From assembly GCA_000165345.1 (NCBI GenBank), contig CM000435.1, positions 768,001 through 832,000 of the forward strand: a stretch of 64,000 nt of DNA. The letters are read 5' to 3'. Each line of letters opens with the position of its first letter. Within the stretch, counting starts at the first letter, position 1. The position numbers and the translations under genes were made by a program. This document shows positions 13,294 through 33,271 of the stretch, one piece after another. The notes under the pieces were generated by a model. The model made no database searches. It worked only from the letters and a program-made list of their open reading frames with translations, and had not been told where the DNA came from.

Positions 13294-13999
13294 AATAAAT
13301 AATTATATCATGCTAATATTAAAACAATTTACTTTCTAATTGATCTTCACTTTTTAACCCAAGGAAAAATAATATGCAGTCTTAGCATATTTTTGTAAAT
13401 TATCCCCAATGATAATTTCCACGTAAATACACAACGTTATGTCTTATCTTGTGGGTTTTCGCATAACAATTGACATTAATAGTTTGGTAATATGATATCT
13501 TCTATCGGATAAAAATTCAAAAAATTTTGCAATGAACAGTCATTTTTATTTGTCTTTAATATGCTTAAGTCAGCTGGTCAGTTTAGGGTTGATTTTTTAG
13601 GATTATGTATGTTGAGTGATTTCTCTGTTCGAATTTCTCATTTTTCCAAGGGTAAGTTTTATTTTGATTTTTTTTTGAGTTTTTGCACTCAGTTTAGAAT
13701 GTCCTTCAACTATTAGGATAAAATTTAGTTCATATATTGATAGAATCGTGAATTCTGCTTTGAGTAAGGTAAATGATACCTATAAAAAATTGAAGTGGCA
13801 AACTAAATATACGGTATGTGGACATAATTCTTATCCCATAGGAGAATCAACTGGCCCATAGATATTTCTGAAGAAAGAATATAATTCCGAGCTACTAATT
13901 ATTCTTCTCGTTGATCAACTTGATTCAAATTTTGAAGTAGATAGAATTTTTAAAGAGTTGAGATTATCACTGAAAAGTATCATTCTTTCTAGGAATCAA

Positions 14000-14398
14000 A
14001 TGAACAATCGCAATTTTAGAGGATTAAATTTCAAAATTGAAAATATTCAACATGATTCAAATTTGATTCTGCAATTAACTGAACTTATTTGCAATGAACC
14101 TCTTGATGTAAAAATGTATATAGAGACTTTAGTGGAAAGAATTAACCTCAAAAATATTGACTTCGCAAACTTAATGTTGGAAAAAATCAAAACAACATTG
14201 AATGACGCTCTAAATACAATTCTAATTAACTGCGAAGATCTTAAAACTTTAGAAGCGAATTCAGTAATTTTAAAAGAAGGCAGCCGCAAATTGTTTAAAG
14301 GCATACTAAGGGATAATTGTTATATTGAGAAAGACATGAGAAATTTACTATTTGCTTCCATAGCAATAGTAGCAATTATAATATTATTAAATAAATAA
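14000..14398 (+). CDS. small tail-anchored coiled-coil protein, possibly a SNARE-like protein
   Basis: The track ORF begins at TTG (13958); the first ATG is at 14000, giving 132 aa. Predicted coiled coil followed by one C-terminal transmembrane segment (LLFASIAIVAIIILLNK). Confidence 0.4.
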   Translation: MNNRNFRGLNFKIENIQHDSNLILQLTELICNEPLDVKMYIETLVERINLKNIDFANLMLEKIKTTLNDALNTILINCEDLKTLEANSVILKEGSRKLFKGILRDNCYIEKDMRNLLFASIAIVAIIILLNK

Positions 14399-14486
14399 AA
14401 ATTAACAAGTAATTCTCTTTCTTTAAATATAAAATGATTGGGAATTACTATATGTCGATAAGGAAGAAAACTCGAGTTCTTAAGTA

Positions 14487-16394
14487 CTATGTATGTATGC
14501 TTTCTTTTGATGCGCGTAGTTTCCTATATGCAATGATACAAGCAAAAAAATTGACAATCACACCCAATCCTGAGAAGCCATAAACTATAGTCATCCCTGT
14601 TCTATTAATACCTGATAATTGTAGCACTGCACCTGGCAAAAGGCTTCCAAGGGCAAATCCAAATACGTGGTAAGTTACCATTGCAACTGTTGTTGCAAAT
14701 TGCCGTGCTTGTGGTTCAACAACTCCAACGCTAATACCAGTAATAGGTGGAACAAGAAATGATCCAAAAAACAATAATCCCCAAACGCCAACAATTGTGA
14801 CTGTAAAATTATCGACTATAAGTGCTAGTGCACCAAATAAAGTTGCAAATATTGCAGATACCATACAAAATAGCATAGTGTAAAATAAACCGCGCTCACT
14901 CTTATACCCGCCTATAAAGTCGATTATAAAGCCGGAAAATACTATTCCTGTAGTAGGGGCAATCACAGCAGTTGCAGAGAATGACATGAAAATAATTCCA
15001 TCTCTAGTAGTATATATTTGCTGTAAATATCTAGTCGTCCAGAATTGTACGGCTGTAACCACGTAGTAAATAACAGACAGAGTGGTAATTGAAAGCATAT
15101 AAATTGAATTTGCCAATAGGCACTTCCATTTGCTGTATGCAATTAATCTTTTTAAAACACTTGATTTTGAATTTTCCGATTCTAATTTTTCTTCGTTTGT
15201 TGCATTAGCTGAAGGTTCTTGATTTAGATTAATAATACTAGAATTTAGGGGTTGTGAACTCTGAGACGTTCCATTTGTAAATTCGGAAAGTGATAGCGAC
15301 CTCGAAATGGAAATATAGTGAGTTGTGAGTGTTGGCTGAAAATCAGTCGACTTTTCAACCGTAACAGTATTTTTTGTGTCGTTTAAATCACTCAGAGCGC
15401 TCTTTTCAATCCGAGACTTAGTAATTTCGGCAGAAAAATCGCCTGATATTTTCTGAACTCGAGTATCAAATGAAAAAGTATTATTAGAATTTGAAATGTT
15501 TTCTTGTGACTTATTTAGGGTAATAAGTTTAGTTGAAACAGCAATCGAGTTATAAGGGCTTTCGACGAGCTCCGTTGAACATGAAGAAGGAATTGAACAT
15601 TGAATTGCTGCGCTATCTTTAATTTGCCTATCCAAACTAATTGCATCATCAGAGTTCATTTTGCCACCTCCCATTTCTATTTCCGAATTTCTGCCTTCGT
15701 GATTAAAATACTTTACGTTAAAGTATTCACTTTTTGTGAATACAAGACAAATTGACATAATTAAAAGTAATAAACAGGGAGCAAGAAGAGAATATCTCCA
15801 TCCATTATGGTAATTTAAAGAGAATCCAGTAATAAGATACCCTGTAGCAACTCCAATAATCATTGTTACTTGTGACGCCCCCATCCATGCTGTAAGTTTA
15901 TTTGGAGGCGTAAATTCGTCGACCCATACAGGGATATAAATACTTAAAGGTGCCTGCATAGATCCCATGATTATCCTCGAAATATACAATAATGTACTTG
16001 TCGTAGAAGATATTAATAAAGCGAGCCCAAAAGATAGGAAAAATAGGGAAGTGACTATTATCCATTTCTGGCTATATTTTTGAAGGGGGTGATTCATAAT
16101 AAATGCAGTTGCCATCGCAGATACATACGGTACTGCACCCAAAACTCCTAATTTCATTTCGTCTAGTCCAAACTCATCAGAAATTAATCCAAGGAGAACT
16201 GGCAACGCACCAGTGTCGTAGTTCCTAAGTACTTGCGCTATAAGCATCCACGCAAAAACAAATCTAACAGCACGAGGATGTTTCATATATCTTTCATGTC
16301 TATAACAGCCATTTGCAACACTAGTTTCTTTGTAAAGATCAAATTTTTTACTGTCCAACTCATATATTGAATCATCATTGGCAGAAGGCTTCAT
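14487..16394 (-). CDS. major facilitator superfamily transporter with a long low-complexity central loop
   Basis: The track start is GTG (16424); the first ATG is at 16394. About 12 hydrophobic helices in a 6+6 arrangement around an approximately 200-aa S/N-rich loop; MFS-like motifs are present. Confidence 0.6.
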   Translation of the reverse strand: MKPSANDDSIYELDSKKFDLYKETSVANGCYRHERYMKHPRAVRFVFAWMLIAQVLRNYDTGALPVLLGLISDEFGLDEMKLGVLGAVPYVSAMATAFIMNHPLQKYSQKWIIVTSLFFLSFGLALLISSTTSTLLYISRIIMGSMQAPLSIYIPVWVDEFTPPNKLTAWMGASQVTMIIGVATGYLITGFSLNYHNGWRYSLLAPCLLLLIMSICLVFTKSEYFNVKYFNHEGRNSEIEMGGGKMNSDDAISLDRQIKDSAAIQCSIPSSCSTELVESPYNSIAVSTKLITLNKSQENISNSNNTFSFDTRVQKISGDFSAEITKSRIEKSALSDLNDTKNTVTVEKSTDFQPTLTTHYISISRSLSLSEFTNGTSQSSQPLNSSIINLNQEPSANATNEEKLESENSKSSVLKRLIAYSKWKCLLANSIYMLSITTLSVIYYVVTAVQFWTTRYLQQIYTTRDGIIFMSFSATAVIAPTTGIVFSGFIIDFIGGYKSERGLFYTMLFCMVSAIFATLFGALALIVDNFTVTIVGVWGLLFFGSFLVPPITGISVGVVEPQARQFATTVAMVTYHVFGFALGSLLPGAVLQLSGINRTGMTIVYGFSGLGVIVNFFACIIAYRKLRASKESIHT

Positions 16395-16522
16395 TGGTTT
16401 TGTCTCTTGCCATCTTACAAGCACTCGTACTAATACAGTTATTTATTGCATCTAGACAAAAATATTCCCGCTGAAATTGGGATTTTTGACCAGAGCAAAT
16501 AATTTGCCCGCAACATGAAAAA

Positions 16523-17395
16523 CTAAAATTTATAAATCGATGCTTTAAGCCTAGTTTCTGAGTTTATTGAAATTATACTCACAATGAAATTATTATTTGA
16601 TCTAGTTATATTATTTCCTATTAAAAAGGTGTCATGAGGTTGTTTTGAAGCGAAAAATAGATCATTTTTTTCTCCATCTTTTGGTTTGCTTTCTAAATTG
16701 GTTATTAAATAACTCTCCAAATTTGAATTAATAGAGCTCAATACTATTGTTTGTTTGATAGCAGTGCCATACTGTACATGTTCTGCCTCATCAATGCATT
16801 TTAAAAATTTTGTGTCCGAGTGAATGTTATCTTGGACTATAACTTTATTTTCATTTGAACTAGTTTTAAATTTGTATCCAGATCTTTTCATTCTGGAATA
16901 AGAAATATAGTTATTAAGCTTAAATTGTTCTTCATTTCTTATAAAAGCGTCAAATAGATAGAGAATAGGGGTCTGAACCCATTCTAGTCTTGATCGACTC
17001 CATGAAAAAAGAAGTAGGCTTCCACGTTCTACAAGAAACAGCAATTCATCAAAAAACACAATCTGCCCATAGCCCAGTGGAAATTTGTTTAGTTCATTAA
17101 CCATTGGGCTTGAGATTAATAATTTAATAAACTTGTCTAAGAATATTCGACTATTGCTTAAAGTATTTATCAGTTTTCCTGACGATAGTATTGTTAAACA
17201 AAATGGATATTTATTTAATCCGTTTGAATCACTCATCTCGAGCAGAATTCCAATAGATTTGGATCTTGATTTTGCATATTTCCAAGTTTCAAAATTAAGT
17301 ATGAATCCCGAACTATTTTTATAAATTACATATAATGGATCTCCCCAATGGGTATCTATTTGAAGAGCAAATTTGTTCTTCTCCTGATTTGACAT
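16523..17395 (-). CDS. hypothetical protein
   Basis: 290-aa ORF with a true ATG; no recognisable motif. Confidence 0.4.
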   Translation of the reverse strand: MSNQEKNKFALQIDTHWGDPLYVIYKNSSGFILNFETWKYAKSRSKSIGILLEMSDSNGLNKYPFCLTILSSGKLINTLSNSRIFLDKFIKLLISSPMVNELNKFPLGYGQIVFFDELLFLVERGSLLLFSWSRSRLEWVQTPILYLFDAFIRNEEQFKLNNYISYSRMKRSGYKFKTSSNENKVIVQDNIHSDTKFLKCIDEAEHVQYGTAIKQTIVLSSINSNLESYLITNLESKPKDGEKNDLFFASKQPHDTFLIGNNITRSNNNFIVSIISINSETRLKASIYKF

Positions 17396-17447
17396 TATAT
17401 TTGTTTATTAGGAGTCCAAGCATCTTTTTAAATAATAAACATTTTCG

Positions 17448-17455
17448 TTTGGCGC
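17448..17455. promoter_or_regulatory. TTTGGCGC E2F-consensus site in the divergent promoter region between genes ending at 17395 (-) and starting at 17835 (+)
   Basis: An exact TTTSGCGC match. GC-containing octamers are rare in this intergenic DNA. Confidence 0.3.
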
Positions 17456-17834
17456 ATTGCGTTAAATAATTTGATCGGTGAATTCTAATTAGTTTTTGGT
17501 GTTCATGACAAATTTTTAGAATGAAATAAAATGGTTGTATGGCTTACAAAAACATTCAAATTTTGGTGTGTACAAATGACGAAAGTTAATATAAAGATCT
17601 TAATGAGAAGCAAAATCAGGTCTTTATATGTTGATCTAATTTTTTTTTTGAAAATTAGTAACCTTGCTCTTACAAAATATTATTTATTATTAAAAATTTT
17701 CTGAAACTTCATATTTTCTCCTTTACACTTAAATATATTTAACTCGTATATTATAATTACTTTTTGAGAAACAGAAATTGTATTACCCCTCTCCCCTCAT
17801 TGGTTCTGAGATTTCTTCAAAATAAAACAACCGA

Positions 17835-20800
17835 ATGTCAGTTAATATTTACGCTTCTGTAATTGACAACTCGTTGATTAAGGTGCTATTTGTTAAGACA
17901 AAAGCTGCTGATTCAGCTCTGTTTGATGATGTAATAAAGCAAATTCAAAATTCGATAATACATTATTCGTTGAATATTGATCAACTTAAAACAAGCCTGA
18001 AATGCGATTATATAAACCAAAATAGGTCGTTATTAGAAACTAAGCCTTTTAAGATAAACACTGTTTATAGAACAATATGTTCAAATAGCAATAAAACAAA
18101 TATTCCAAGATCGTTAATTTGTATTGACCATGTTGTTATTTTTGTTACTTTAAAAAAAAAAAAATGTTTCAATAACAAAATATTCGACAATGAGACGAAT
18201 ATCCCTGACCATCCATTTATTTATAGAGTTGATATCGACATCATTGATAGTATTAACAAAGAGATAGAGTTAAACTGCGAAGATAAAAATGGTATTCAAT
18301 TTAATTCAATCAACGAGCTTGCAGAAAATGTTATTTTAAATATTTTTTGCAAATTCAATTCAATTGTTAATAAATACATAGATAAAGGATATGACAAAAT
18401 TACAAAAATTGAGTTATTAGAGGACAAAACCTTAGAAATTATTAGATATAGAATGAGAATTGCAGGAATATATTTGGCTTTGGGATCCCCCATATCATCT
18501 GCAATGTACTATAATTCAATATTGGAGCTAATAGAAGACCATGATTTAGATCTTGCTTATTACTTAGCGCATTGCTTTGAAGGCCAGGCTACCATGTTAT
18601 ATTATTTCTATTCTAATTCAGAAAACTCATTGGAATGGTGGGAAGTTGTATCTAATTCATTAAGCTCGTTTATTCAAGACTTGCCTATCCCGATACAAGT
18701 CAGTCTACAATCAAATAATTACAATTCTACAAATTACAACGACTCGATTTATATTATACAGTCGAGAAAACAAATTTTTTTTGATTCAATACTTAAAAAG
18801 CTTAATCTTTCTCTAAATTTGCTTTGGAAAATAAATCATTTTACGAATGGATTTATAATATCTGACAATAATACAAAATTAAATTACAATAGTGATTTTT
18901 CCGTTTCAATTTATGAATTGATAATTAAAAAGTCACGATTTTTGATAGAGAATTTTGTAAGCCATTTCTACCTAGACAGGAAAATAATAATAGACTTTTT
19001 GGATCCATTTGTTAACTTAAATATCCCACCGGACTATTCAAGGAATGACTTATATAACTATGCTATGTTTTTGATAGGATGCGCAGAAATTTATTTCAAT
19101 ATTAATAGTAAAAGAAGGGTAGGAATCATCCTAATTAAGCTATCACAACTATTCAATCAAAACAAAATATATAACCATAGCTACTATATTTCATGTGCAG
19201 CCTATCAGTGGTATTCAAGTATTTACACTGGAACTAACAATTTTGATCTTTTGAAAATTATTCAAAATTTAGCTGCTCACATTCTAAAAGAAGAAGATAA
19301 TTATTCAACACATATTCAATGTGCACTTTGTAATGTCTCTAATAATTCAAACATTTTATTGGGAAGTAATTATAGACTTGATCAAATAACTGAAAAAAAA
19401 TTAGGTATAATGTTTGAAAAACATTATGTTCCTGGAAAACTTTATCTTGACAACAATTATTTACAATATCTTTCTATTTACAAACACGATCTATCTTTGA
19501 GTTATTCAGCGCTTATATCTAATGGAGGTACGAGCTTATATCAAGACTTAGAGTGTTCAAATGCCCATTATGAATTGCTTGCATCTTTAAAACCTTTTGT
19601 TAACAGTTTTGTTTCTTATGGCGTGCATTCAATGCTTCAGGCATATCGAAAATTTTATCTAAACACGATTGATTTGCAAAAGTTAAAAGCATACCCATCT
19701 AGATATGAAATGTTAGCGTTGATAACAATGATTGAGTCAAGTATTTTATTTGGATGTGCGTCAAGATCTGCAACAGTTTTATTACTAATACTTGATAAAA
19801 TTATATATTTTCCTCCTATATATAACTATGATACACTAAAAATAATTCAATCTAAATGCATAGACTCATTGTCAATCATAAGCAATACTATTCAACTTCC
19901 AATAATAAGGGCACCATATTACTCAGTTACGAACGGTAAAAATCGTTGTTACACTTCAATTGAATCATTGGACCATTTGTTCAATACTTTGCTTCATACA
20001 ACGCAATTAATACTTATCTTCGATGTTACATTCGAGCAAATTCCATTAAATACCGAATGCTACAAGTGTAACAATGAAATTAGTTTATCTTCTATATTCA
20101 GTGCAAAAGTAAATGATTATTGTTCTAATTGCGAAAGCAAAATGCTAAAAACAGATAGTTCCCCCATGATTTTTTGTAAAACTTCAAATATTAGTTATTT
20201 TTCGGATCCAAAGTTTATTATTCAACCAGAATTTAAATGGGTTCCTCTCAAAGTTAACAATGCAAAGATCCCAGTGTTAAATAGCTTGAAAGCTAACCAA
20301 TCAAACTTATTTTTATACAATCCATTTGAAAAGAAAGTCAATGATTTAAGGGAAATATGCAATCATGGTAAATCTCAAGTTGAAACTCAAACTAATATAA
20401 TTTGGCAAGCTGAGAAACAGTATACAATTTATGTATCATTATTTAATCCTTTCCTAATTCCTATTATTCTTGACTGCTTTAGTGTAATTATTAAAGGTGA
20501 AGTGAAATGTGAGATTTCACCGGTTTCTGTAGTAATTCCACCAACTCCTAGATTCTCAACACCGGGCGAAGTGAAAGTAGCAATTGCAGTGATTCCAAAA
20601 AATTCAGGAAACTTATCTATTATTGGCGTTACCTATAAGTTCTCAGGAATAAATTACGTAAATTTTGGCTCAAAATTATCATTTTTTAATAACAAGAACA
20701 ATTTAAAACAATATTTAAATATTTTTGTAGTACCTAATATTTCATATGATGATATAATTTTTTGGGAAAAAAATGATATGCAAAAACAAAATTTGTGTAT

Positions 20801-21827
20801 AAATAACAATGGAAAAGTAGTTATTAAATCAAAAAAAAAACTAAATTACGAAGCTGAGAAAAAAATCAAATTATTAACTTCAGAAGTCTTCATAGATCAA
20901 ACTGAAGGTACAAATGAAATTTTCTCATTTGAAAATATGATTACGAAAGATAATGAATTAATTGTCACTATTGAATGCTCAAATATATATAAGATGAACA
21001 GATATAAGCTTCTAGTAACTCATTGGCTGGAAATTAACGGAAAGGTAATTATTTCTTCCAAATTATTTGATTTATTTTCAAATATTCCTCCGCTTCCCAA
21101 GATAACTAATATTTCATGGATACCAAAATTAGACTTCCAACAGGCTTGCTTTAAGTCAAACAACAATAAATGGAAGGTTAGCAACATTTGGGTTATTTTC
21201 ACATTAGAAAATAACTCTAGAGTATACCCAATTGAGTTTTCATTTAGCTCAAATTTATTAGAAGGGAAAAAAGCATTGCTTTTACCAGATAAAAGGAATT
21301 ATAGGTGGGTTGTTGAGACAAAAATTAAAAATTTAATTGAATTACAAAGTAATCCGTTGTTATTAAATTGGAAGGCATTTTTTCCAAATATTATATTTGA
21401 TAAAAATAAATCAGAGTTTATAATTGCTGGAAATCTAACTGCAAATATATTAATACCTGAATTTCTATCTAGATATGAATTTTATGTAGAAATAAAGTGT
21501 AATGGAACGAAAATTGAAAACAGGCAAGCAATTCCAGTTAATTCAATGGCCAATATTGAAATTTATGCAATATCTGAAAGAAAATCCACAAGTTTGACAA
21601 GCATCAGGATTATCCCGTTTGGAGATACAATGAAATCAAAACAAATATACTTAGACTATTACGAAAGTGATATTAATGTTTCAGAAGTGCCTATTCTCTA
21701 TTTTTCTATTATTGGTCTTGAGAAAAAAACATATGAATGGATTGTAGGAGTGGAAGAGTTGGAAACATCAACTCAGGAAAGAGTATTTCATTGGAAAAAC
21801 GATCTACTCTCAATTTCATTTACTTGA
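17835..21827 (+). CDS. large hypothetical protein (1330 aa)
   Basis: Long uninterrupted ORF with a true ATG. N/I/K-rich with no domain I can name. Its 3' end overlaps the convergent PPAT-like gene by 12 nt. Confidence 0.55.
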   Translation: MSVNIYASVIDNSLIKVLFVKTKAADSALFDDVIKQIQNSIIHYSLNIDQLKTSLKCDYINQNRSLLETKPFKINTVYRTICSNSNKTNIPRSLICIDHVVIFVTLKKKKCFNNKIFDNETNIPDHPFIYRVDIDIIDSINKEIELNCEDKNGIQFNSINELAENVILNIFCKFNSIVNKYIDKGYDKITKIELLEDKTLEIIRYRMRIAGIYLALGSPISSAMYYNSILELIEDHDLDLAYYLAHCFEGQATMLYYFYSNSENSLEWWEVVSNSLSSFIQDLPIPIQVSLQSNNYNSTNYNDSIYIIQSRKQIFFDSILKKLNLSLNLLWKINHFTNGFIISDNNTKLNYNSDFSVSIYELIIKKSRFLIENFVSHFYLDRKIIIDFLDPFVNLNIPPDYSRNDLYNYAMFLIGCAEIYFNINSKRRVGIILIKLSQLFNQNKIYNHSYYISCAAYQWYSSIYTGTNNFDLLKIIQNLAAHILKEEDNYSTHIQCALCNVSNNSNILLGSNYRLDQITEKKLGIMFEKHYVPGKLYLDNNYLQYLSIYKHDLSLSYSALISNGGTSLYQDLECSNAHYELLASLKPFVNSFVSYGVHSMLQAYRKFYLNTIDLQKLKAYPSRYEMLALITMIESSILFGCASRSATVLLLILDKIIYFPPIYNYDTLKIIQSKCIDSLSIISNTIQLPIIRAPYYSVTNGKNRCYTSIESLDHLFNTLLHTTQLILIFDVTFEQIPLNTECYKCNNEISLSSIFSAKVNDYCSNCESKMLKTDSSPMIFCKTSNISYFSDPKFIIQPEFKWVPLKVNNAKIPVLNSLKANQSNLFLYNPFEKKVNDLREICNHGKSQVETQTNIIWQAEKQYTIYVSLFNPFLIPIILDCFSVIIKGEVKCEISPVSVVIPPTPRFSTPGEVKVAIAVIPKNSGNLSIIGVTYKFSGINYVNFGSKLSFFNNKNNLKQYLNIFVVPNISYDDIIFWEKNDMQKQNLCINNNGKVVIKSKKKLNYEAEKKIKLLTSEVFIDQTEGTNEIFSFENMITKDNELIVTIECSNIYKMNRYKLLVTHWLEINGKVIISSKLFDLFSNIPPLPKITNISWIPKLDFQQACFKSNNNKWKVSNIWVIFTLENNSRVYPIEFSFSSNLLEGKKALLLPDKRNYRWVVETKIKNLIELQSNPLLLNWKAFFPNIIFDKNKSEFIIAGNLTANILIPEFLSRYEFYVEIKCNGTKIENRQAIPVNSMANIEIYAISERKSTSLTSIRIIPFGDTMKSKQIYLDYYESDINVSEVPILYFSIIGLEKKTYEWIVGVEELETSTQERVFHWKNDLLSISFT

Positions 21828-23734
21828 AAAGAATTCATCTAATCTTCGTTTAACAAATTCGAACTTTAAGTAGTAATCTTCATAAATATCAACATTAGAA
21901 CTTCCTTTATAATTTAATGCTAAGTTTAAAACTTCATCACCAATTAAATCACCAAATTGGTATTCAAAGGCGGAATATTTTATGCTGCTTGCTTTGCTAA
22001 AAAAAATGTTTTTCTCTACATCAGAGTGACAAAATATGTACGGGATACAAAATTCTGAATGTTCGCATCCCCACTTCACTTTGCTATCTCCATCCATCAA
22101 TAACTTATTAAACAATAAGTTGATTTTTTTAAGGTCACCGTGCGAAATTTCCACCTTCTTTTTTTTAATTAAATTTAATGTAGAAATTAGATAAATAATT
22201 ATTAATGTTAAATGTTTAGAGATACTTAAGAAACTATTATTTTCAACCAAATTTAAATCTGCAATTTTTCCTTCCTTTTCCAATTCAAGTATTAATTGGC
22301 TAAACCACTTTTCAAAAACTGCCCTGCCCTTTTCATATCCAAGTAATGCTCTCCATCCATACAGAATTTCAAAAATTATGTCATCAATAAATGAGAATAT
22401 CATATTAGTTATTGCAGAAATATCATTAAATATCAACTCTGAAGGAAGCATTTTATTAAGTAACAACGTAATTGATTTCCTTAATATTGATAGATTTAAC
22501 GGGTTATCCAAGTTTTGTTTTAATGAATATCTAAGCCCTGTAGAGCAGAATTTTACTGATGATCCATTAGTTGGCTTTACTCCTTCGGAATGGTTTATTA
22601 GGGGTCTGTAAACAAATGGAACCTTAACTAATTTAACTACCGGCGAACCGCATGCCACTCTAAGATCATTAATCTTCGCTGCGTTATTATAAGATTCTGG
22701 TGTTGCAATCAATGCATCAAATTCGAAAATATCTGCGCCACCAACGATGCTTGAAATTCTTAATATGGCAACAGAAATATCAGGAGATAAAGAAAAGATA
22801 AATGAGTGAACATTTGCGCTTCTAAAGGAAAAATCCTAAATGAAATCAATGAATTACTAAAAACGGTAAAAGAACTTACTTGAATGATATCTTTATCACT
22901 TTTATTAGCATTAAACAACTTATCAGTAATACCAATTATTACTAATTCTTTAGCATACCAAGTTGCAACTGTAATATTTACTTTATGCCCAGGGTGTAGT
23001 CTGTCAAATGTTCCCGCAAATAGTGTACGATTAATAGGGCTATCAAAGAAGTTATCATTTACATTTTCTAGAACTGTATTAAGTTTATCTTTCCATAGCG
23101 GAATCGATGGACTCTCCGAAACTTCAAAAGTTTGGAACCCATGTGAAACTAGGTGGGCAGTGTATTTTTTACAAATAATTGAATTTATATCTGTATTTTC
23201 AGAGTTGAAGTTTATATAATACATATTTTTTCGGCAAATACAAGAAAATATATTATTAATTATATTTGCGCATTGCACCAAGTTGCCATGCTTCTCACAA
23301 AACTTATATGAGTTAGACCAGAATAAAGTTTGATCACTCAATCCCATAGTTTTATATATGTGGCTCAGACAATCATTCTTAACAGGGATAAATCTTATAT
23401 CAAATGTTGGCATTTTATTTAATGTTTCAATTATATCAAGAGCTATTTCATATGCTTTAACAATACTGTTTACATGTTTATAAGTTAAATTTACAAACGA
23501 TGAACGTTGGGAATTACAATCCGCTTCAGAAGGTTTTATAAATGATTTATTGATTTCATGAGAATATTCATCACTTTGTGGAAGTACAGAATAGTATATG
23601 AAAAGTGAATGGCTAGTATGAAATATACAAGAATAAAGTAGCTTAAATAGCGTATGCCTTGCACTATCAGATATATTGACATCAGTCCACCACTGTGGAT
23701 CTAAAATTAAAAACCCACTCTCTATTTCTGACAT
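21816..23734 (-). CDS. phosphopantetheine adenylyltransferase (COASY-type PPAT domain) protein; two exons (23734..22880 and 22835..21816) split by a 44-nt intron at 22836..22879
   Basis: Exon 1 ends …GTFDRLHPGHKVNI…IIGITDKLFNANKSDKDIIQ, containing the HxGH nucleotidyltransferase motif, immediately followed by GTAAGT. The acceptor TTTCATTTAG restores the frame into DFSFRSANVHSF…GGADIFEFDALIATPESYNNAAKINDLR, which aligns with the COASY PPAT segment (…LLQPYTERVEHLSEF…[22 protein letters not shown]). The result fuses track ORFs 22760..23734 and 21816..22712. No DPCK P-loop is present. Confidence 0.65.
22836..22879 (-). other. 44-nt spliceosomal intron of the PPAT-like gene
   Basis: Donor GTAAGT, read on the minus strand, falls exactly after codon CAA (Q). 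The acceptor TTTAG is in phase 0. The unspliced reading frame ends in nonsense hydrophobic residues (…FRIFPLEAQMFTHLSFLYLLIFLLPY*). Confidence 0.65.
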
Positions 23735-23913
23735 CTAATTAGCTCATATTTATTGTTTAATTAACAATTCGGAGTTCGCAAAGTTCATTGTTTAATTTAT
23801 TTAGCCGCGTTCAATTAGCCGCAATAAGAATCTGTTTTGTCTCTATTGTCAGTTAGTGACAAAATTATCCAAAATATTATATTTAGAATCAATATCGATT
23901 CTTTTTCTTTGAT

Positions 23914-24666
23914 ATGGATAGGTTTAAGTTGAGCAACCCTATAAAAGCTCAGAAGCATTTAGAAGATGCTGTAAATGCATTGAAAGAACTTGTTAAAATA
24001 AAAAAATGCCCAGAGGATTTATTATTCAATAAGAATTCGCAATTTATTACTTTGATCATTTCTTTATCTAATACTCCAGAATTTGTTAAAAGTAAACATG
24101 TAAGAATAAAAATCCCAAATTCTTTGTATAAACATCCGGGAAATGAAGTTTGCTTATTTGTCAAAGACCCACAGAGAAAATGGAAGGAACTGATAAGCTC
24201 TTCTTCAATTGAACCAAAAGTCGTTTCAAAGGTTATTGGCGTTAGTAAGCTCTCTAAAAAATATAGTACATATAAGGACAGGCGAGAACTTTGCTCAGGA
24301 TATGATCTATTTTTATCAGACGACCGTATAATCGAAAAGATGCCTAAGTTGTTAGGATCATACTTTATTAAAGCAAATAAGATGCCGATAGCAATAAAGA
24401 TTAGGGAATCCAATTTCAAGAATTCACTAGAGTCTGCGCTATCCTCAACTTTTATGAGTATTAAGAAAGGTAAATGCATTGGAATTCGCGTTGCAAGAGT
24501 CGACATGAATACTAAACAAGTCGTTCAAAATTTAATTGAAGCAATAAAACAGGTGTCAGATTTTTTTGAAGGCAACGGAAGTAAGAATTGGAGAAATAGT
24601 ATAGAAAGCTTATATATACAGTCTACAAACACAATGTCCCTACCTATATGGTTCAAGGAGAAGTAA
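23914..24666 (+). CDS. ribosomal L1 domain-containing protein (Cic1/RSL1D1-like)
   Basis: 250 aa with an L1p/L10e-like fold signature (…VRIKIPNSLYKHPGNEVCLFVKD…RELCSGYDLFLSDDRII…IGIRVARVDM…). Confidence 0.5.
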   Translation: MDRFKLSNPIKAQKHLEDAVNALKELVKIKKCPEDLLFNKNSQFITLIISLSNTPEFVKSKHVRIKIPNSLYKHPGNEVCLFVKDPQRKWKELISSSSIEPKVVSKVIGVSKLSKKYSTYKDRRELCSGYDLFLSDDRIIEKMPKLLGSYFIKANKMPIAIKIRESNFKNSLESALSSTFMSIKKGKCIGIRVARVDMNTKQVVQNLIEAIKQVSDFFEGNGSKNWRNSIESLYIQSTNTMSLPIWFKEK

Positions 24667-24774
24667 TAGACTTTTAACATTTTTTATTAAATCTACCAAA
24701 TTATGTTGGGGTACCATCGAATTAATAAACAATTAAAATCATCTTGAACAGAATAAATTTTAATAAACATTCGA

Positions 24775-25581
24775 TTAAATTGATTCTTCACTTGATTCTT
24801 CCAGGAAATGGCTTGTCATCTGCTTTTTTCTTGACTCTGTCGTACAGATCGTCCTTTTCTGTTGAATCTTTATAGATGAGATAGTGTTCAGTTCGTCTAT
24901 TCTTTTCCTTGACTCAACCTCATGTATGTTGATCTCCTCTAATGTCGTTGGCATCATGGCTCTGGAACGAGAGTCTCTAAGTAGTTTACTTTTTTCAATT
25001 GTTCTAGGTCTGACTGTTAACTTGTTGTCCACTCTTTCTATGCAGACCTTATACTTTTTGTCGAAGGTATCATCAAAAATAAATGCTTTATCGGGTCCAA
25101 TCACGCAATCATATACTAATTCGTCATTGATAAATAGCGAGTAAGTGCCGTCACTCCAAGAAACTAGTTTGGAGTTAGAGTAGGAATCTCCTTCACCTTT
25201 AATACCGCCTTTGATACATAAACCACTTTCAGTTGTATTATCAACATTTGTTTTATTTACAACTTTAAGACGTTCCGGAAGTTTTAATGTTAATAAAACT
25301 TGATCTTTGTTGTCAATCCCGAAATAATTTGTAGGCAGTTGTAACTTTAAATTTTTAATATCTTCAAAGTTGTTAATTCTATCGCAGTTAATATTATCAT
25401 TTATACTAGTATGAGTTTTTGCATCGTCTTTTTCAATCATAAAACAATGTCCATCATTATGAACCTGGTCAGGAGTTGAGTCACTCTCGCCAAAAAGATC
25501 AGAATCACTTTCATCTATGTTTGAATCATGTATGGCTTCACTTGGAGAATCTTTATGATTATCAAAATGGCCAAGCATCAT
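24775..25581 (-). CDS. LEO1: LEO1 (Paf1 complex subunit)
   Basis: The track start is TTG (25620); the first ATG ATG is at 25581. The Leo1 core (SNSKLVSWSDGTYSLFINDELVYDCVIGPDKAFIFDD…KVCIERVDNKLTVRPRT) matches human LEO1 ([28 protein letters not shown]…FIRQG…KTKLTFRPHS). Confidence 0.65.
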   Translation of the reverse strand: MMLGHFDNHKDSPSEAIHDSNIDESDSDLFGESDSTPDQVHNDGHCFMIEKDDAKTHTSINDNINCDRINNFEDIKNLKLQLPTNYFGIDNKDQVLLTLKLPERLKVVNKTNVDNTTESGLCIKGGIKGEGDSYSNSKLVSWSDGTYSLFINDELVYDCVIGPDKAFIFDDTFDKKYKVCIERVDNKLTVRPRTIEKSKLLRDSRSRAMMPTTLEEINIHEVESRKRIDELNTISSIKIQQKRTICTTESRKKQMTSHFLEESSEESI

Positions 25582-25623
25582 AAATTCAATAAATGCCAGA
25601 TTTTGCCTATGTGCGCGCAAAAA

Positions 25624-27994
25624 CTAAGGCTTATTTTTATAAAAATTTCTAAGCTTCAAAATCACATTAGTCTCAAAATTCCAATCAATTAATTGTTCAT
25701 TAGGAATATTCTCAGCTATCCATTTTGGTAGCATTTGCTTTACTTCAGAAGAATTATATCGATGATCAACCAACAAAATAGATGAATAATCATTTCTATG
25801 TCTTATTGCGCGACCAATACATTGGTTGACTGTTTTCATACACAATACTTTTCTATAAATGTTTTCATACCTATTATAATCGCAACTACCTCTGTTAAAG
25901 TACCTCTCCTTACTAAAAAGCATTTCAGTCTTTTGTGGAAATGGGAGCGAAACTATTATAAGGCATCTACAAAGTTCATCTGAAAAATTTACTCCCTCCG
26001 AAAGAGTTCCATTTAAAACAGCAAAAAGTATTGCTCCGTATTCCTTGTTATTTACAATATGGTCTCTATATGACATAAGTAATTCCTTTCCACTATTTGA
26101 ATCCTGTTTTTTTTCCTTGAAAATTTTTTTGTATTTTAATATTGTTTGGTAAAAGTCCTTAGAACTTTTATCCGAAACAAGGAACTTGAAAAAGACATCG
26201 AGGAATAAGTGGGATGTGAAGAAAACGCATACCCCGTTAGGTATTTCTGAGGAAAGTACTGATAATAGCTCGCAAAGATTTAATAGCTGTTTTATGTCGG
26301 TTCGAAATTCGTATCTTAGATCAATTACACTATTATCAATAAACTTTGGAATGATCAAACACATTAAGTTATTATTTGAAATATGGTGACTCGCAGAGAA
26401 CTTTACAATATTCATAGGCTCTAACGGTAATAATAATGGACTAAACTCTGTCAAAGGTTCCAATGTTCCTCCAACAAGCATAGTAGATTTTGTGTTGGCA
26501 AATACATCATTAAAACTTGTTTGCACATTAATAGGAACAACTGTAATAGTAGCCTGTTTGCCATCTGAATGGTTAAAGCTTGTTTCAATAATAACTTTGT
26601 CAAATTCTTTATCAGAACGAATTAAAGCAACAATAAAATCCTTTAACAAAAACAAAGAGTTTGAATGTGAAATTATTTCCTCAAACTTTCTGAATTTAAT
26701 TGGGAAATCTCTTCCAAATTTAATAATAATATTTTTAATTTTACTACACAATTCATTTTCAACAATAAAATTAATAATTTTGTTCAAATTAAATGTATTG
26801 ATTTGGTAAAAATTTAAGAATTCTAGTGGTCCAAGAAAGATTTGATTACTTTTCACTTCGTTTTCACCATATTTGCGCTTTTTTGAACTGATTATTTTAC
26901 TTGTAGATGAATGTATACACTTGACTAGCCTAGCTAGCTGTTTAAAAGTTGCAACGAAATTATCTCCAGGAACAGAATTATCTAATGAAATTAGTTTTTC
27001 AAATGAATAACTCAGTATTTGGCAAGAAAGTAAAGTAAGGCTGACTCTATTATTTGATTCTAATGCGTTAACTAAATTATGCGCTTCATCAATAAAGCAA
27101 AGGGTTTTTTTCTTGTCAAGAAAGATTCCAAATGATTCTCGAGTAGTTTTGTTGAAAATAATACTGTAAGGTGCAAGAATTATGTCTGAATACTTACTTG
27201 CTTCTTTAGCTGCGTAATACGGACATGCCTATAAACAATATTTAGTATGAAAATAATTTAAATAAACTTACAATTAAATTTTTACCTTCTTTACGTAATT
27301 CTTCAATGTTCATTGGCTCAATTAAACACTTTTTCGCAAGTTCCATGTAGTTTTCTTTATAGAGGCATTTATTTTCTTTTTTTTCTTCGCTGGAATACAT
27401 TTTACAAACTTCATTAATAAGATGGTTTGGATAGTTTTTTACTTCATTATTTAAACAAAGATGTGACCTGCTTGCAAGCGATACAATTGAATAAATGTTA
27501 GAAATGTGAGTGTTATCTTTATTTGCCATTTTTATTTTGTTAAACTCCTCAACGAATTGCATTAATTGCGTATGAGTTCTACTAGAGATGATTATCTGAT
27601 AGTAACTAGAAAAAAAATCTAAGTTTTCGCTAGATATTAATTCTTTTACATTTTTTTTTGTCGAAGTTAAAATATCTTTGTTGATAGATTTTAAAAAATT
27701 AATTTTTTCATTAATGTATTGCTCGCATGAATTTTCTCTACTTTTCCTGATTGCATTAGCGACCCATAAAGGCATTGGCTTGCTTTCTCGGGCAAAAGAT
27801 ACTGGGCCATAAATTTGTTGGCTTATCCAACTCAGTGATGAGCATAAAATACTTAAAGTTTTACCTGTGCCCGTTGGAGATTCAAAAATTCCAATTCCAC
27901 CATCTATTTCATATAGCTTCCAAGCAGCTGAACAAAATTCGGATTGTATTTCATATGGTTCATTCGGGAATCCAAATCTTTTTGAATAACACAT
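25624..27994 (-). CDS. DDX11/Chl1-type DEAH-box (Rad3/XPD family) DNA helicase; two exons (27994..27272 and 27228..25624) split by a 43-nt intron at 27229..27271
   Basis: N-terminus FPNEPYEIQ…GIGIFESPTGTGKTLSIL is the Rad3-family motif I. Exon 1 ends …ELRKEGKNLI|GTAAGT. Exon 2 begins ACPYYAAKEA… and continues LCFIDEAHNLVNA (the DEAH box). The C-terminal helicase domain carries QCIGRAIRHRNDYSSILLVD. Confidence 0.75.
27229..27271 (-). other. 43-nt spliceosomal intron of the DDX11-like helicase gene
   Basis: Donor GTAAGT and acceptor TTGTTTATAG. The splice joins …GKNLI to ACPYY…, recreating the conserved CPYY motif of Rad3-family helicases. Confidence 0.7.
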
Positions 27995-29217
27995 TGTAAA
28001 TACTTCTGTACCACTTTATCTTAATGAGTGTGGTCAACTAGTATTTAAGTAGGCCATTTCCAGTACTTTAGTAACAAATTTCTGTATTATGAGTTATTCT
28101 CCTAAGTGAAAATAAATTAAAATGATTTAAAAATATATAAAACACCCATAATATTTGTAGTAATAAATTATTTATGTTAAAAAATATACTGTTAGTAAAA
28201 CTTATTTTAAATTTACCCGTTTTTCTCATGCAATGCCTGAGTAAACTTTTTAATAAGCTAAGCAGCGCTTAAATATGAAATATTAGAATTACCTAATTAT
28301 TTATCAATATTTTAATTAAAGATATTCACCACTTTTTGGTTTGGTCTTATATAATTACTTTTATTTCAAATTGGTTGAAAAAATTTGTCAAGCCAAAAAA
28401 AAATTGTTAATGAACCGTAAATCATCTGAAAGAAATCATTTTAAATTATTTGCATTTATAAGAGCTTAATATATTAATCAATTCATCATTAAGTTTTGTT
28501 TCTTAGTAACATGCTTTAATTTATATTTTTCAGAATATTAAAGGATAAAAAATGGTTTTAATTAAAATTAAATAGACCTAGCTGTTGTATAAATCATTTG
28601 GATTGAACAACATTAAAATGGTTTTTGTTAATTCCTAATCAAAAGAATAACTTTTATTAGTAATTTTCATTGAATAGATTGATACTATATTTTTTAAATT
28701 ATAGTGTATCTGAAAATAATATTGCATTAATTTCAAATTCTCTGAGTTTGCGATGAGAAACAATAGTAGTACCCGAATAAGTTCTCTTTTTTTTCTTAAT
28801 TAAAATATTTCAATTTAAACATTAATTTTTAATAACTTGTTATAAATATTTTTAAAGATTACAACATTTTGTGATTTTCAGAGTTAAAAAACTCATCCCA
28901 GATAAATATGACGAAATAGCTTGGGGACTTGACTTGAAAAAAATTAATATCTTTAAGATGTTCTAAATCTAACTCCCAACAAAATCCCAATTAGAACAAA
29001 TTTGAAATGGAATTTCTAATCAATTAACACCAAGATCAATTAGAATGTGTTACTATAATTGAATATTTTAGGATCAACAGAATCGGACAATAAATTTAAA
29101 AAAAAAAATGAAGTTACTCTATTTTTGTATTACTCAACTAATTTCTAAGATATATGAATTGTTATCTAACGAGTGCTAATAAAGCATTTTGAATACAATT
29201 ATTAAAACACAAATATT

Positions 29218-29591
29218 TTATGGGCTACAATATGGGTTCTCTATTACTTCACTTCCGTCACTTGGACAAATCATTAAAACCTAGAAAAAATTTTATTGAA
29301 AAAAAAATTAAATTCAAACTTACAGAAGCACCCCTTATTACCAATAGACCCAACCTCCGTTTTTGATCTGGGCACGAAAGAAATTCATCTTTATCTATTC
29401 GAACTAATAACTGATTAAACAAATAATATTAGTAACCTACCAAACATATATTCAACTGTTTCATCCAAAACAAGGTTCGTAACCGCATCAAATCCACGTA
29501 ATATTCCAATAACTTCTCTTCCGCCACATAATTTTACTTTTATTTCTTTGTTATTAAACTTGTTCAACCCTAATATTGATTTTGATGACAT
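29218..29591 (-). CDS. LSM7: LSm7 (U6 snRNA-associated Sm-like protein); three exons (29591..29441, 29394..29324, 29280..29218)
   Basis: Exon 1: [50 protein letters not shown] (Sm1 motif). Exon 2: [24 protein letters not shown] (Sm2 motif RxLGLVVxRG). Exon 3: [20 protein letters not shown], matching the human LSm7 C-terminus …SVVLICPQDGMEAIPNPF. Introns are 29395..29440 (GTAGGT…AATAG) and 29281..29323 (GTAAGT…TTCTAG). Only exon 1 appears in the ORF track, fused to nonsense. Confidence 0.75.
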
Positions 29592-29709
29592 TTCTATATT
29601 AAATGACAAATAATATTTAGCGAGCGGTACCAATTTTTATAATTTAATATGAAATGAATATTAAGTTTCCAGGTTTTGAAGTTTGTATCTGAATTGCTTG
29701 GCAAGAAAA

Positions 29710-31194: not shown

Positions 31195-31375
31195 TTTGAA
31201 AATAATAATTAATTTTACTCTAATGATTGAATTTAACAAGAATTTAAGAAATGATCTTCACTAATAAGTTTTTTTTCTATTTTTCCGGAAAGTAAATTTT
31301 GTATATGCTGACTGTACAGTCGCAAACTACTTAATTCTTAAATAATATATGTTTAAATTAATACTTAAGGAATAT

Positions 31376-33237: not shown

Positions 33238-33271
33238 ATGTCAATTTTGAAATTATTTTCTCTCTTTTTCA

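What the first reader, a model, noticed from the sequence alone, without database searches (positions are those of the whole stretch)
21816..23734. Two track ORFs are one PPAT-like gene: a 44-nt intron sits exactly inside the conserved PPAT core
ORF 22760..23734 ends in a hydrophobic nonsense tail right after …DKDIIQ, where a GTAAGT begins. Removing 22836..22879 joins it in frame to ORF 21816..22712. This reconstitutes a COASY-type phosphopantetheine adenylyltransferase domain (GTFDRLHPGH…IIGITDK…DIIQ|DFSFRSANVHSF…GGADIFEFDALIATPESYNNAAKINDLR). The 624-aa product carries ~240-aa N-terminal and ~250-aa C-terminal extensions of unknown function and no dephospho-CoA kinase P-loop. That would be an unusual architecture for a CoA-pathway enzyme.
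Basis: partly seen in the sequence, partly recalled or inferred. Interest (0 to 1): 0.6.

Follow-up and report, generated by a model that had tools for sequence, protein, structure and literature searches.

The report
Known spliced Cryptosporidium PPAT gene

Summary
On the minus strand, ORF 22760..23734 runs into a GTAAGT…TTTAG segment (22836..22879, 44 nt). Removing it joins the ORF in frame to 21816..22835, giving a 624-aa protein.

That protein is residue-for-residue identical to GenBank XP_628512.1/EAK90683.1, "cytidylyltransferase (HIGH family) exon-1", from Cryptosporidium parvum Iowa II. So the window is C. parvum and the spliced model is already in GenBank.

- **Intron:** it sits after codon 285 in seven Cryptosporidium species. 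Length varies (44–66 nt), the sequence has diverged, and every read-through hits a stop.
- **PPAT identity:** splicing restores one continuous match to archaeal/eukaryotic-type PPAT (NCBIfam NF001985, 74.5 bits, versus 26.7 and 13.6 for the separate ORFs; PDB 3do8, E 3e-9). The HPGH and CSTGLR motifs are invariant.
- **DPCK:** there is no DPCK domain or P-loop, but that is normal. Only 1 of 146 closest non-Cryptosporidium PPAT-domain proteins carries one, and N-terminal extensions of 100 aa or more are common.
- **Flanking regions:** the N-terminal 235 aa and C-terminal 230 aa have no detectable sequence relatives outside the genus. The N-terminal model weakly resembles nucleotidyltransferase/USP-like folds. 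The C-terminal region evolves fast and remains unexplained.

Verdict: real, correctly interpreted, already known, low interest.

The parts
22880..23734 (-). Exon 1 (855 nt, codons 1-285: MSEIESGF...DKDIIQ)
   Evidence: The start MSEIESGF/M.EI..GF is conserved in all orthologues. Exon 1 is exactly 855 nt in seven species.
22836..22879 (-). Spliceosomal-type intron, 44 nt, GTAAGT...TTTAG, 25% GC
   Evidence: The position is conserved after codon 285 in seven Cryptosporidium species. Lengths are 44-66 nt, all three residues mod 3 occur, the sequence has diverged, and read-through reaches a stop in every species.
21816..22835 (-). Exon 2 (codons 286-624 plus TGA stop: DFSFRSANV...DEFFSSK*)
   Evidence: The first 41 codons (22713..22835) lie upstream of the mechanical ORF start, but they are open in frame and encode conserved PPAT residues.
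23030..23734 (-). N-terminal region, residues 1-235; found only in the genus at sequence level; predicted five-stranded alpha/beta domain
22509..23029 (-). PPAT catalytic domain, residues 236-394 (interrupted by the intron)
   Evidence: NCBIfam NF001985: E 9.1e-21, residues 237-361. PDB 3do8 PPAT: E 2.9e-9, residues 238-360, spanning the junction. hhalign against P0058 covers residues 230-394 at 98.8% probability. 54% of columns are invariant.
22985..22996 (-). HPGH (residues 247-250): the (H/T)xGH nucleotide-binding signature
   Evidence: H247, G249 and H250 are invariant in the genus. They align with invariant or near-invariant H/G/H columns of 146 relatives.
22530..22547 (-). CSTGLR (residues 382-387): the ISxTxxR-type second signature of the superfamily
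   Evidence: S383, T384 and R387 are invariant. The motif aligns to ...SSTQLR of P0058 and corresponds to the near-invariant S-S-x-x-x-R columns of alignment A5.
21816..22508 (-). C-terminal region, residues 395-624 plus stop; found only in the genus, fast-evolving, predicted helical at low confidence
   Evidence: 8% of its columns are invariant, but the reading frame stays open at similar length in seven species, with conserved motifs SF[IV]DD, W..L.G...F..W, E[FY]CIPY and [YF][LI].F.[FHY][VF]. No homologues were found outside the genus. AF2 pLDDT is below 57.

Best explanation
Region 21816..23734 (minus strand) is the two-exon Cryptosporidium parvum gene for a monofunctional, archaeal/eukaryotic-type phosphopantetheine adenylyltransferase (PPAT). 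PPAT carries out the fourth of the five steps of coenzyme A synthesis.

The pre-mRNA carries one 44-nt GT-AG intron after codon 285, in the middle of the catalytic domain. The spliceosome removes it to give a 624-aa protein.

The central domain (residues 236-394) is inferred to bind ATP through the HPGH and CSTGLR motifs and to transfer AMP to 4'-phosphopantetheine, producing dephospho-CoA and pyrophosphate. A separate enzyme then performs the last step (DPCK), as in other apicomplexans.

The N-terminal 235 aa form a conserved alpha/beta domain of unproven role. The C-terminal 230 aa are a fast-evolving, probably helical region specific to the genus.

What is shown: the gene structure, identity with the deposited protein, homology to PPAT, and conservation of the intron and the motifs. 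What is inferred: splicing in vivo, the enzymatic activity, and any role for the flanking regions.
For: - **Identity:** the spliced 624-aa product is an exact match to XP_628512.1/EAK90683.1/QOY40666.1/WRK33521.1 of C. parvum. Annotated orthologues in eight other Cryptosporidium species share the junction DI[IL]Q|DF[SA].R.
- **Intron conservation:** at the DNA level the intron is at the same codon in seven species. It has GTAAG/GTATG...YAG ends, lengths 44-66 nt, diverged sequence and premature stops if retained. The flanking exons are conserved.
- **Profile match:** splicing turns two fragment matches to NF001985 (26.7 bits over profile positions 7-62; 13.6 bits over 96-129) into one continuous 74.5-bit match over positions 7-129, E 9.1e-21.
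- **Solved structure:** PDB 3do8 (Archaeoglobus fulgidus PPAT) aligns across the junction, E 2.9e-9 with the single sequence and 3.1e-10 with the profile.
- **Exhaustive search:** the profile search found 1577 proteins at E<=1e-3. All 146 listed non-Cryptosporidium proteins among the best 150 match the PPAT-domain portion of the profile, and 139 of those 146 pass Pfam CTP_transf_like.
- **Motifs:** HPGH and CSTGLR are invariant.
- **Same intron style nearby:** a second short intron of the same type (43 nt, GTAAGT...TAG) is in the neighbouring helicase gene.
- **Synteny:** the order L1 / PPAT / TRAPPC9-like is kept across species.
Against: - No transcript data could be examined here, so splicing is supported by comparison and by existing annotation, not observed directly.
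- The single sequence scores below curated thresholds: Pfam PF01467 17.5 bits against 21, and NF001985 74.5 against 104.
- The AF2 model of the whole protein is poor (pLDDT 46), including the catalytic domain.
- I found no report of enzyme activity for the Cryptosporidium protein in the papers I read or searched for.
- Other GenBank models of this gene (589 and 600 aa) add a second intron near the 3' end, so the exact C-terminus is not unanimous.
Confidence: 0.93

Rival explanations
1. The gene has a second intron near its 3' end, so the real product is a 589-aa (...GDEITT) or 600-aa (...YKGIRIC) protein rather than 624 aa.
For: Several deposited models use such endings. They include C. parvum KAL5367663.1 and C. 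hominis KAL3127140.1 (589 aa), C. hominis OLQ18011.1 (600 aa), and truncated models in C. ubiquitum, C. canis, C. ryanae, C. serpentis and C. meleagridis. In the window the corresponding GT...AG segments would be about 21878..21932 or 21864..21901.
Against: - The second-intron models disagree with one another between species.
- With only the first intron removed, all seven species give open frames of 618-637 aa ending in a shared motif, [YF][YF][LI]xFx[FHY][VF]...F.
- The proposed donor, GTTTTA, is far from the GTAAG/GTATG seen at the confirmed intron.
- The original and the CPATCC C. parvum annotations keep the 624-aa form.
Confidence: 0.12
2. The two ORFs are separate genes or proteins, as in the original C. 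hominis TU502 annotation and in prokaryote-style ORF calls.
For: XP_667766.1 (217 aa, ending in the same read-through tail) and XP_667765.1 (212 aa) were deposited as two hypothetical proteins. Assembly-derived ORF calls of 324 and 298 aa also exist.
Against: - Each half carries only part of one catalytic domain.
- 41 conserved codons (DFSFRSANV...GGADIFEFDAL) would be left uncoded.
- The read-through tail is not conserved and is of different length in each species.
- Every later annotation merges the two.
Confidence: 0.02
3. The domain is a nucleotidyltransferase with a different substrate (for example NMN/NaMN adenylyltransferase or a cytidylyltransferase, as the deposited name "cytidylyltransferase (HIGH family)" suggests) rather than PPAT.
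For: - The GenBank name is generic.
- Pfam recognises only the superfamily-level model, and below threshold.
- There are weak NCBIfam hits to the generic cytidylyltransferase model TIGR00125 and to glycerol-3-phosphate cytidylyltransferase TIGR01518.
Against: - The three best NCBIfam matches are all PPAT models, at E 9e-21, 4e-16 and 2e-7. The other substrate classes score E>=0.005.
- The only PDB sequence hit is a PPAT.
- The closest relatives include a PPAT+CoaE bifunctional protein (P0026) and three PPAT+DUF359 proteins.
- One C. hominis record already names it PPAT.
Confidence: 0.05
4. The 44-nt interruption is a frameshifting assembly error or a pseudogene lesion, not an intron.
For: None beyond the fact that the frame is broken in the genomic sequence.
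Against: Independent assemblies of seven species all have an interruption at exactly the same codon, with canonical GT...AG ends and variable length. The flanking coding sequence is strongly conserved: 54% of PPAT-domain columns are invariant.
Confidence: 0.01

Closest known systems
C. parvum Iowa II XP_628512.1 / EAK90683.1, "cytidylyltransferase (HIGH family) exon-1" (also QOY40666.1 CPATCC_003551, WRK33521.1)
   Same: Identical over all 624 residues, so the start, splice junction and stop are all the same.
   Different: Nothing differs. The window contains this gene. The deposited name is generic, whereas one C. hominis record (OLQ18011.1) calls the orthologue phosphopantetheine adenylyltransferase.
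Archaeal PPAT (Archaeoglobus fulgidus, PDB 3do8; NCBIfam NF001985/PRK00777)
   Same: The catalytic core aligns over about 120 residues, including GTF(D/E)xLHxGH and the ...SPE(T/S)Y..A.KIN..R block.
   Different: The archaeal enzyme is a 148-157-aa single domain. The Cryptosporidium protein adds 235 aa before and 230 aa after it, has an insert at about residues 362-380, and scores below the curated cut-off (74.5 against 104 bits).
Bifunctional CoA synthase (COASY type: N-terminal region + PPAT + DPCK), e.g. P0026 and human COASY
   Same: Same type of PPAT domain (P0026 is the best non-Cryptosporidium hit, 85.8 bits). Both also have a substantial N-terminal region before it. Human COASY is described as an N-terminal regulatory domain plus two catalytic domains (PMC5847545).
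   Different: There is no CoaE/DPCK domain and no Walker A motif. Homology between the N-terminal regions could not be shown.
Monofunctional eukaryotic PPATs of about 280-360 aa with an N-terminal extension (most hits; yeast Cab4 is of this kind, from my own knowledge)
   Same: Stand-alone PPAT with the catalytic domain starting around residue 100-200: median extension 141 aa, and 109 of 144 have 100 aa or more.
   Different: They end about 12 residues (median) after the SSTxxR motif, whereas the Cryptosporidium protein continues for 230 aa more. Their N-terminal regions form families of their own (a 52-member cluster) to which the Cryptosporidium N-terminus shows no significant similarity.
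PPAT fused to a C-terminal 'YH(T/N)L.H ... FHD' domain of about 220-230 aa (14 of the 146 relatives by the motif scan, e.g. P0072 and P0083; P0111 has the same domain). From my own knowledge this domain resembles the uncharacterised HD-superfamily group COG4339.
   Same: A module of the same size sits at the same position, directly after the PPAT domain. HMMER alignments of P0072 and P0083 run on into profile positions 395-468.
   Different: The Cryptosporidium region lacks the YH..H and FHD motifs. Profile-profile and profile-sequence comparisons are negative: hhalign probability 0.3-0.9%, and hmmsearch is no better than on shuffled sequences.

Membership tests
Archaeal/eukaryotic-type phosphopantetheine adenylyltransferase (PPAT domain of COASY; nucleotidyltransferase alpha/beta-phosphodiesterase superfamily) | Significant sequence similarity to PPAT-specific profiles or structures across the whole catalytic domain | tested here: met
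   NF001985: E 9.1e-21 over residues 237-361. NF002250: E 3.7e-16. PDB 3do8 PPAT: E 2.9e-9 and 3.1e-10. hhalign to P0009 and P0058: 98.0% and 98.8% probability.
Archaeal/eukaryotic-type phosphopantetheine adenylyltransferase (PPAT domain of COASY; nucleotidyltransferase alpha/beta-phosphodiesterase superfamily) | Reaches the curated score thresholds of the family models | tested here: not met
   PF01467: 17.5 bits against gathering score 21, with only the first 44 profile positions matched. NF001985: 74.5 against 104. These are thresholds for naming, and the NCBIfam ones are tuned to prokaryotes. 139 of 146 proteins retrieved with the Cryptosporidium profile do pass PF01467. I therefore read this as sequence divergence, not exclusion from the family.
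Archaeal/eukaryotic-type phosphopantetheine adenylyltransferase (PPAT domain of COASY; nucleotidyltransferase alpha/beta-phosphodiesterase superfamily) | (H/T)xGH signature after the first strand | tested here: met
   GTFDRLHPGH, with HPGH at residues 247-250. It is invariant in nine Cryptosporidium sequences and matches the invariant G/D/H/H columns of 146 relatives.
Archaeal/eukaryotic-type phosphopantetheine adenylyltransferase (PPAT domain of COASY; nucleotidyltransferase alpha/beta-phosphodiesterase superfamily) | Second signature, ISxTxxR type, near the end of the domain | tested here: met
   CSTGLR at residues 382-387. S383, T384 and R387 are invariant. It aligns to SSTQLR of P0058. The S, S and R columns are near-invariant in alignment A5.
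Archaeal/eukaryotic-type phosphopantetheine adenylyltransferase (PPAT domain of COASY; nucleotidyltransferase alpha/beta-phosphodiesterase superfamily) | Catalyses ATP + 4'-phosphopantetheine -> dephospho-CoA + PPi | not testable with these tools
   This needs an enzyme assay or genetic complementation. I found no such report for Cryptosporidium in the papers searched.
Bifunctional CoA synthase (COASY: PPAT + DPCK) | C-terminal dephospho-CoA kinase (CoaE, PF01121) domain with a Walker A P-loop | tested here: not met
   No CoaE hit at E<=1. No G....GK[ST] motif, nor even GK[ST]. The positive control P0026 gives CoaE at 152 bits.
Bifunctional CoA synthase (COASY: PPAT + DPCK) | N-terminal region homologous to the COASY N-terminal (regulatory) region | tested here: inconclusive
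   hmmsearch of the N-terminal profile against 146 relatives is no better than against shuffled or reversed sequences. The best hhalign result is E 0.027-0.05, on the segment VKAYEIALD...FDIRFIPV. A resemblance seen by eye is only a lead.
Spliceosomal GT-AG intron | GT...AG boundaries with a consensus-like donor, and removal restores the reading frame and protein homology | tested here: met
   GTAAGT...TTTAG, 44 nt. The profile match becomes continuous. The alternative acceptors do not work: a 23-nt intron runs straight into a TAA stop, and a 58-nt intron is out of frame (both read from the sequence).
Spliceosomal GT-AG intron | Position conserved in orthologues while length and sequence drift | tested here: met
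   Seven species have the intron after codon 285. Lengths are 44, 47, 49, 47, 66, 48 and 48 nt, and GC content is 17-33%.
Spliceosomal GT-AG intron | Absent from mature mRNA | not testable with these tools
   No transcript collection was available. Only the deposited annotations imply splicing. For context, PMC4637869 reports RNA-seq-supported introns in about 10.8% of C. parvum genes.
PPAT fused to a C-terminal HD-like (YH..H/FHD) domain | C-terminal domain with YH(T/N)L.H and FHD motifs and profile similarity | tested here: not met
   hhalign probability is 0.3% with a 3-sequence profile and 0.9% with a 15-sequence profile. hmmsearch scores are at or below those of shuffled controls. No conserved His or Asp lies at the corresponding places.
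HUP-class Rossmann-like fold (nucleotidyltransferase / USP / class I aaRS-like), for the N-terminal 235 aa | Five-stranded parallel alpha/beta fold that superposes on HUP members | tested here: inconclusive

The most novel reading that the evidence does not exclude
The conserved N-terminal 235 aa may be a degenerate second nucleotidyltransferase-like (HUP-fold) domain that has lost the HxGH motif. It could pack against the catalytic PPAT domain as a built-in pseudo-dimer partner.

The fast-evolving helical C-terminal 230 aa would then be a Cryptosporidium-specific regulatory or anchoring module. It occupies the same position where other eukaryotes fuse a DPCK or an HD-like domain to PPAT.

If so, the parasite's PPAT would differ structurally from human COASY in ways that matter for selective inhibition.
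Probability: 0.2. Interest if true: 0.35.

Novelty: already known. Interest (0 to 1): 0.1.

Why it matters
The result matters mainly as quality control. A reader working from raw sequence alone recovered a correct eukaryotic gene model, whereas ORF-based callers and the first C. hominis annotation split the gene in two.

The gene itself encodes a step of CoA synthesis, a pathway under discussion as an antiparasitic drug target in apicomplexans (PMC8717973). The enzyme's genus-specific flanking regions, and its weak similarity to the human enzyme, could be relevant to that work.

Nothing here changes the current understanding of the pathway, of introns, or of Cryptosporidium.

Tried and rejected
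1. **C-terminal 230 aa as a degenerate HD-like domain** (as fused to PPAT in P0072, P0083, P0111 and others). The lead came from HMMER alignments running on to profile position 468 and from a W..L..G...W pattern seen by eye. Rejected at sequence level: hhalign probability 0.3% and 0.9%, and hmmsearch no better than shuffled controls.
2. **C-terminal region as a degenerate DPCK.** There is no CoaE hit and no P-loop. The region is predicted all-helical, but with low confidence.
3. **N-terminal region homologous to the N-terminal regions of other eukaryotic PPATs/COASY.** HMM against sequences equals the shuffled and reversed controls. Profile-profile E 0.03-0.05 is not significant.
4. **Profile searches with the N- and C-terminal regions alone** returned only Cryptosporidium-like ORFs.
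5. **Full-length AF2 model** was too poor to use: pLDDT 46. The afdb50 fold library was unavailable. Foldseek against PDB with the N-terminal model found nothing significant.
6. **Identifying the HD-like domain of P0072 and P0111.** Pfam, PDB sequences and NCBIfam gave no match.
7. **The GTAAGT..TTTAG motif as evidence on its own.** It is not enriched over shuffles.
8. **Literature search by accession** (XP_628512, EAK90683, CPATCC_003551) found no paper. The gene identifiers in Fig. 2 of PMC8717973 are not held as text.
9. **ORFs 33272..34720 and 34804..35400 as another split gene.** They look like separate genes: a T-rich spacer is followed by a new ATG and a signal-peptide-like start.


Full report
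**What is in the sequence**

The window is AT-rich (31% GC).

After ...SDKDIIQ the first ORF runs into GTAAGT at 22879. It then continues as a hydrophobic tail, VSSFTVFSNSLISFRIFPLEAQMFTHLSFLYLLIFLLPY*. The 44 bases 22836..22879 read GTAAGTTCTTTTACCGTTTTTAGTAATTCATTGATTTCATTTAG. Removing them gives an 1875-nt CDS with no internal stop and a 624-aa product joined as DIIQ|DFSFRSANV.

The two nearby alternative acceptors do not work. A 23-nt intron runs straight into a TAA, and a 58-nt intron breaks the frame (sequence). A GTAAGT...TTTAG motif by itself is not unusual in this window: 3 found against 1.7 expected. The case therefore rests on the results below.

**It is an annotated gene**

The 624-aa product is found by exact look-up as EAK90683.1 / XP_628512.1, [quoted passage not shown]. 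It is also QOY40666.1 (CPATCC_003551) and WRK33521.1.

Homologues with E<=1e-120 are all from Cryptosporidium: C. hominis, chipmunk genotype I, C. ubiquitum, C. canis, C. felis, C. xiaoi, C. ryanae and C. serpentis. One C. hominis record is already named phosphopantetheine adenylyltransferase. All of these proteins carry the same junction.

The two-ORF reading also has a history. The first C. hominis TU502 annotation deposited the halves as two hypothetical proteins, one of them with the read-through tail. ORF callers applied to raw assemblies produce the same 324-aa and 298-aa pieces.

**The intron is real by comparative criteria**

I fetched the orthologous loci of six further species. In each I located the interruption.
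- Exon 1 is exactly 855 nt in all seven species.
- The intron always follows the Q codon of D[IL][IL]Q.
- It starts GTAAG or GTATG and ends YAG.
- Lengths are 44, 47, 49, 47, 66, 48 and 48 nt, covering all three residues mod 3.
- GC content is low (17-33%) and there is no sequence conservation.
- Read-through reaches a stop within 3-40 codons, while the flanking exon sequence is nearly identical.

Gene order is also conserved: Leo1-like, ribosomal L1-like, this gene, then a convergent 1330-aa TRAPPC9/Trs120-like gene.

A second intron of the same style lies in the neighbouring helicase gene (43 nt, GTAAGT...TTTATAG, 27229..27271). Its removal joins the DEAD_2 and Helicase_C_2 ORFs into a 775-aa product, the same length as the C. 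xiaoi orthologue.

For context, C. parvum re-annotation reports introns in 4-11% of genes, with mean length 84-99 bp and 22% GC (PMC4637869). I could not examine transcripts, so splicing in vivo remains inferred.

**It is a PPAT**

Against NCBIfam, the spliced protein matches the archaeal-type PPAT model NF001985 at E 9.1e-21. That is 74.5 bits over residues 237-361 and profile positions 7-129, in one stretch. The separate ORFs give only 26.7 bits (profile 7-62) and 13.6 bits (profile 96-129). Splicing therefore restores the middle of the domain.

- The only PDB sequence match is A. fulgidus PPAT 3do8. It scores E 2.9e-9 with the single sequence and 3.1e-10 with the profile, and the alignment crosses the junction.
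- Pfam sees only the first 44 positions of CTP_transf_like, at 17.5 bits, below the 21-bit gathering score.
- An exhaustive profile search of 1.84 billion representatives found 1577 proteins at E<=1e-3. Only Cryptosporidium sequences matched outside the PPAT-domain portion of the profile.
- Of the 146 listed non-Cryptosporidium proteins, 139 pass CTP_transf_like.
- The two signatures of the superfamily are present and invariant: HPGH (247-250) and CSTGLR (382-387).

From the established chemistry of this superfamily, I infer that the domain adenylylates 4'-phosphopantetheine to dephospho-CoA.

**Is the architecture unusual?**

There is no CoaE domain and no Walker A motif, but this is the common state.
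- Only 1 of the 146 relatives has CoaE, and 3 have DUF359.
- In Plasmodium and Toxoplasma, PPAT and DPCK are separate proteins, whereas the human enzyme is bifunctional (PMC8717973, PMC10242022, PMC5114727).
- N-terminal extensions are also common. The median is 141 aa, and 109 of 144 relatives have 100 aa or more. Human COASY is described as having an N-terminal regulatory domain (PMC5847545).

What is specific to Cryptosporidium is the sequence of the N-terminal 235 aa and the whole C-terminal 230 aa. Profile searches with either region alone return only Cryptosporidium-like ORFs. Comparison with the flanks of the 146 relatives is no better than with shuffled or reversed sequences.

Conservation within the genus is graded. 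Invariant columns make up 54% of the PPAT core, 23% of the N-terminal region and 8% of the C-terminal region.

**The N-terminal region**

An AF2 model of residues 1-235 (8 sequences, pLDDT 66.9, pTM 0.68) shows five strands alternating with helices and two disordered loops.

This is a hint, not a demonstration, that the region is a degenerate domain of the same broad fold class as the catalytic one.

**The C-terminal region**

This region keeps an open frame of similar length in all seven species. It has a few conserved motifs: SF[IV]DD, W..L.G...F..W, ILIY, E[FY]CIPY, EKNIFF and a terminal [YF][LI].F.[FHY][VF]. It is predicted helical with low confidence.

By the motif scan, fourteen of the 146 relatives carry a different module of about 225 aa at this position, with YH(T/N)L.H and FHD motifs. 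Pfam, NCBIfam and PDB sequences do not recognise that module. I tested whether the Cryptosporidium region is a decayed version of it, and the answer at sequence level is no. Its function is unknown. A regulatory or scaffolding role is a guess.

**The 3' end**

Some deposited models add a second intron and end ...GDEITT (589 aa) or ...YKGIRIC (600 aa). These models disagree between species.

With only the first intron removed, all seven species give 618-637-aa proteins with an alignable C-terminal motif. I therefore favour the 624-aa form, with about 0.12 probability that a second splice is used.

The stop codon overlaps the convergent neighbour's 3' end by 12 nt.

**Verdict**

The feature is an already annotated, ordinary two-exon gene, so novelty is "already known" and interest is low. 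What remains open is the role of the two genus-specific flanking regions.

Noticed in passing
window 27229..27271 (- strand); ORFs 27242..27994 and 25624..26856: The neighbouring DEAD_2/Helicase_C_2 (XPD/DDX11-like) helicase gene is also split into two ORFs. The cause is a 43-nt GTAAGT...TTTATAG intron. Removing it gives a 775-aa in-frame product (...GKNLI|ACPYYAAKEA...), the same length as the C. xiaoi orthologue.
   Followed up: yes
window 21816..21827: The PPAT stop (TGA, 21816..21818, minus strand) and the stop of the convergent 1330-aa TRAPPC9/Trs120-like ORF (17835..21827, plus strand) overlap, so the two coding regions share 12 nt.
   Followed up: partly
window about 21864..21932 (- strand): Other GenBank models of this same gene remove a second GT...AG segment near the 3' end: 589 aa ending GDEITT and 600 aa ending YKGIRIC. 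They disagree between species and cut off a C-terminal motif that is conserved in seven species when left unspliced.
   Followed up: partly
window about 21780..21830 (- strand): C. canis, C. serpentis, C. ubiquitum and chipmunk genotype I end ...FFQxxExESxSxFQ. In C. parvum the frame differs by one base, so the protein ends ...FFSSK*. The downstream DNA still reads NEIESRSFFQ* in another frame, which points to a lineage-specific 1-nt indel at the extreme C-terminus.
   Followed up: partly
proteins P0013, P0015, P0020-P0022, P0024, P0025, P0172-P0175 (other assemblies): The original C. hominis TU502 annotation (XP_667765.1, XP_667766.1) represents this gene as two separate proteins, one with the intron read-through tail. 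So do many ORF calls on raw public assemblies. Such split entries persist in protein databases.
   Followed up: yes
proteins P0027, P0032, P0040, P0045, P0054, P0056, P0072, P0074, P0083, P0091, P0097, P0102, P0117, P0141 (P0111 has the same domain): A recurrent fusion outside Cryptosporidium joins PPAT to a C-terminal domain of about 225 aa with W..L...WW..L..Y...YH(T/N)L.H...FHD..Y...NE..S motifs. Pfam, NCBIfam and PDB sequence searches on representatives (P0072, P0083, P0111) do not recognise that domain. It looks like an HD-superfamily phosphohydrolase (my own recollection of COG4339), and its link to CoA metabolism is unexplained.
   Followed up: partly
loci L001-L006 and window 22880..23734: Exon 1 is exactly 855 nt (285 codons) in all seven species. 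This holds even though a poorly conserved, predicted-disordered loop lies at residues 52-83. The alignment does show one offsetting pair of single-residue gaps in C. serpentis.
   Followed up: no
window 1..64000: The rest of the window holds ordinary C. parvum housekeeping genes. These include patatin-like lipase, a protein kinase, an MFS transporter, two PP2C phosphatases, a Kelch protein, Mpp10, PRMT5, a CID-domain protein, a poly(A) polymerase-like protein, NAD(P)H-hydrate dehydratase, an E2F/DP-like protein, Hsp90, and TPR and HAT-repeat proteins. No CoaE/DPCK gene is present in the window.
   Followed up: partly
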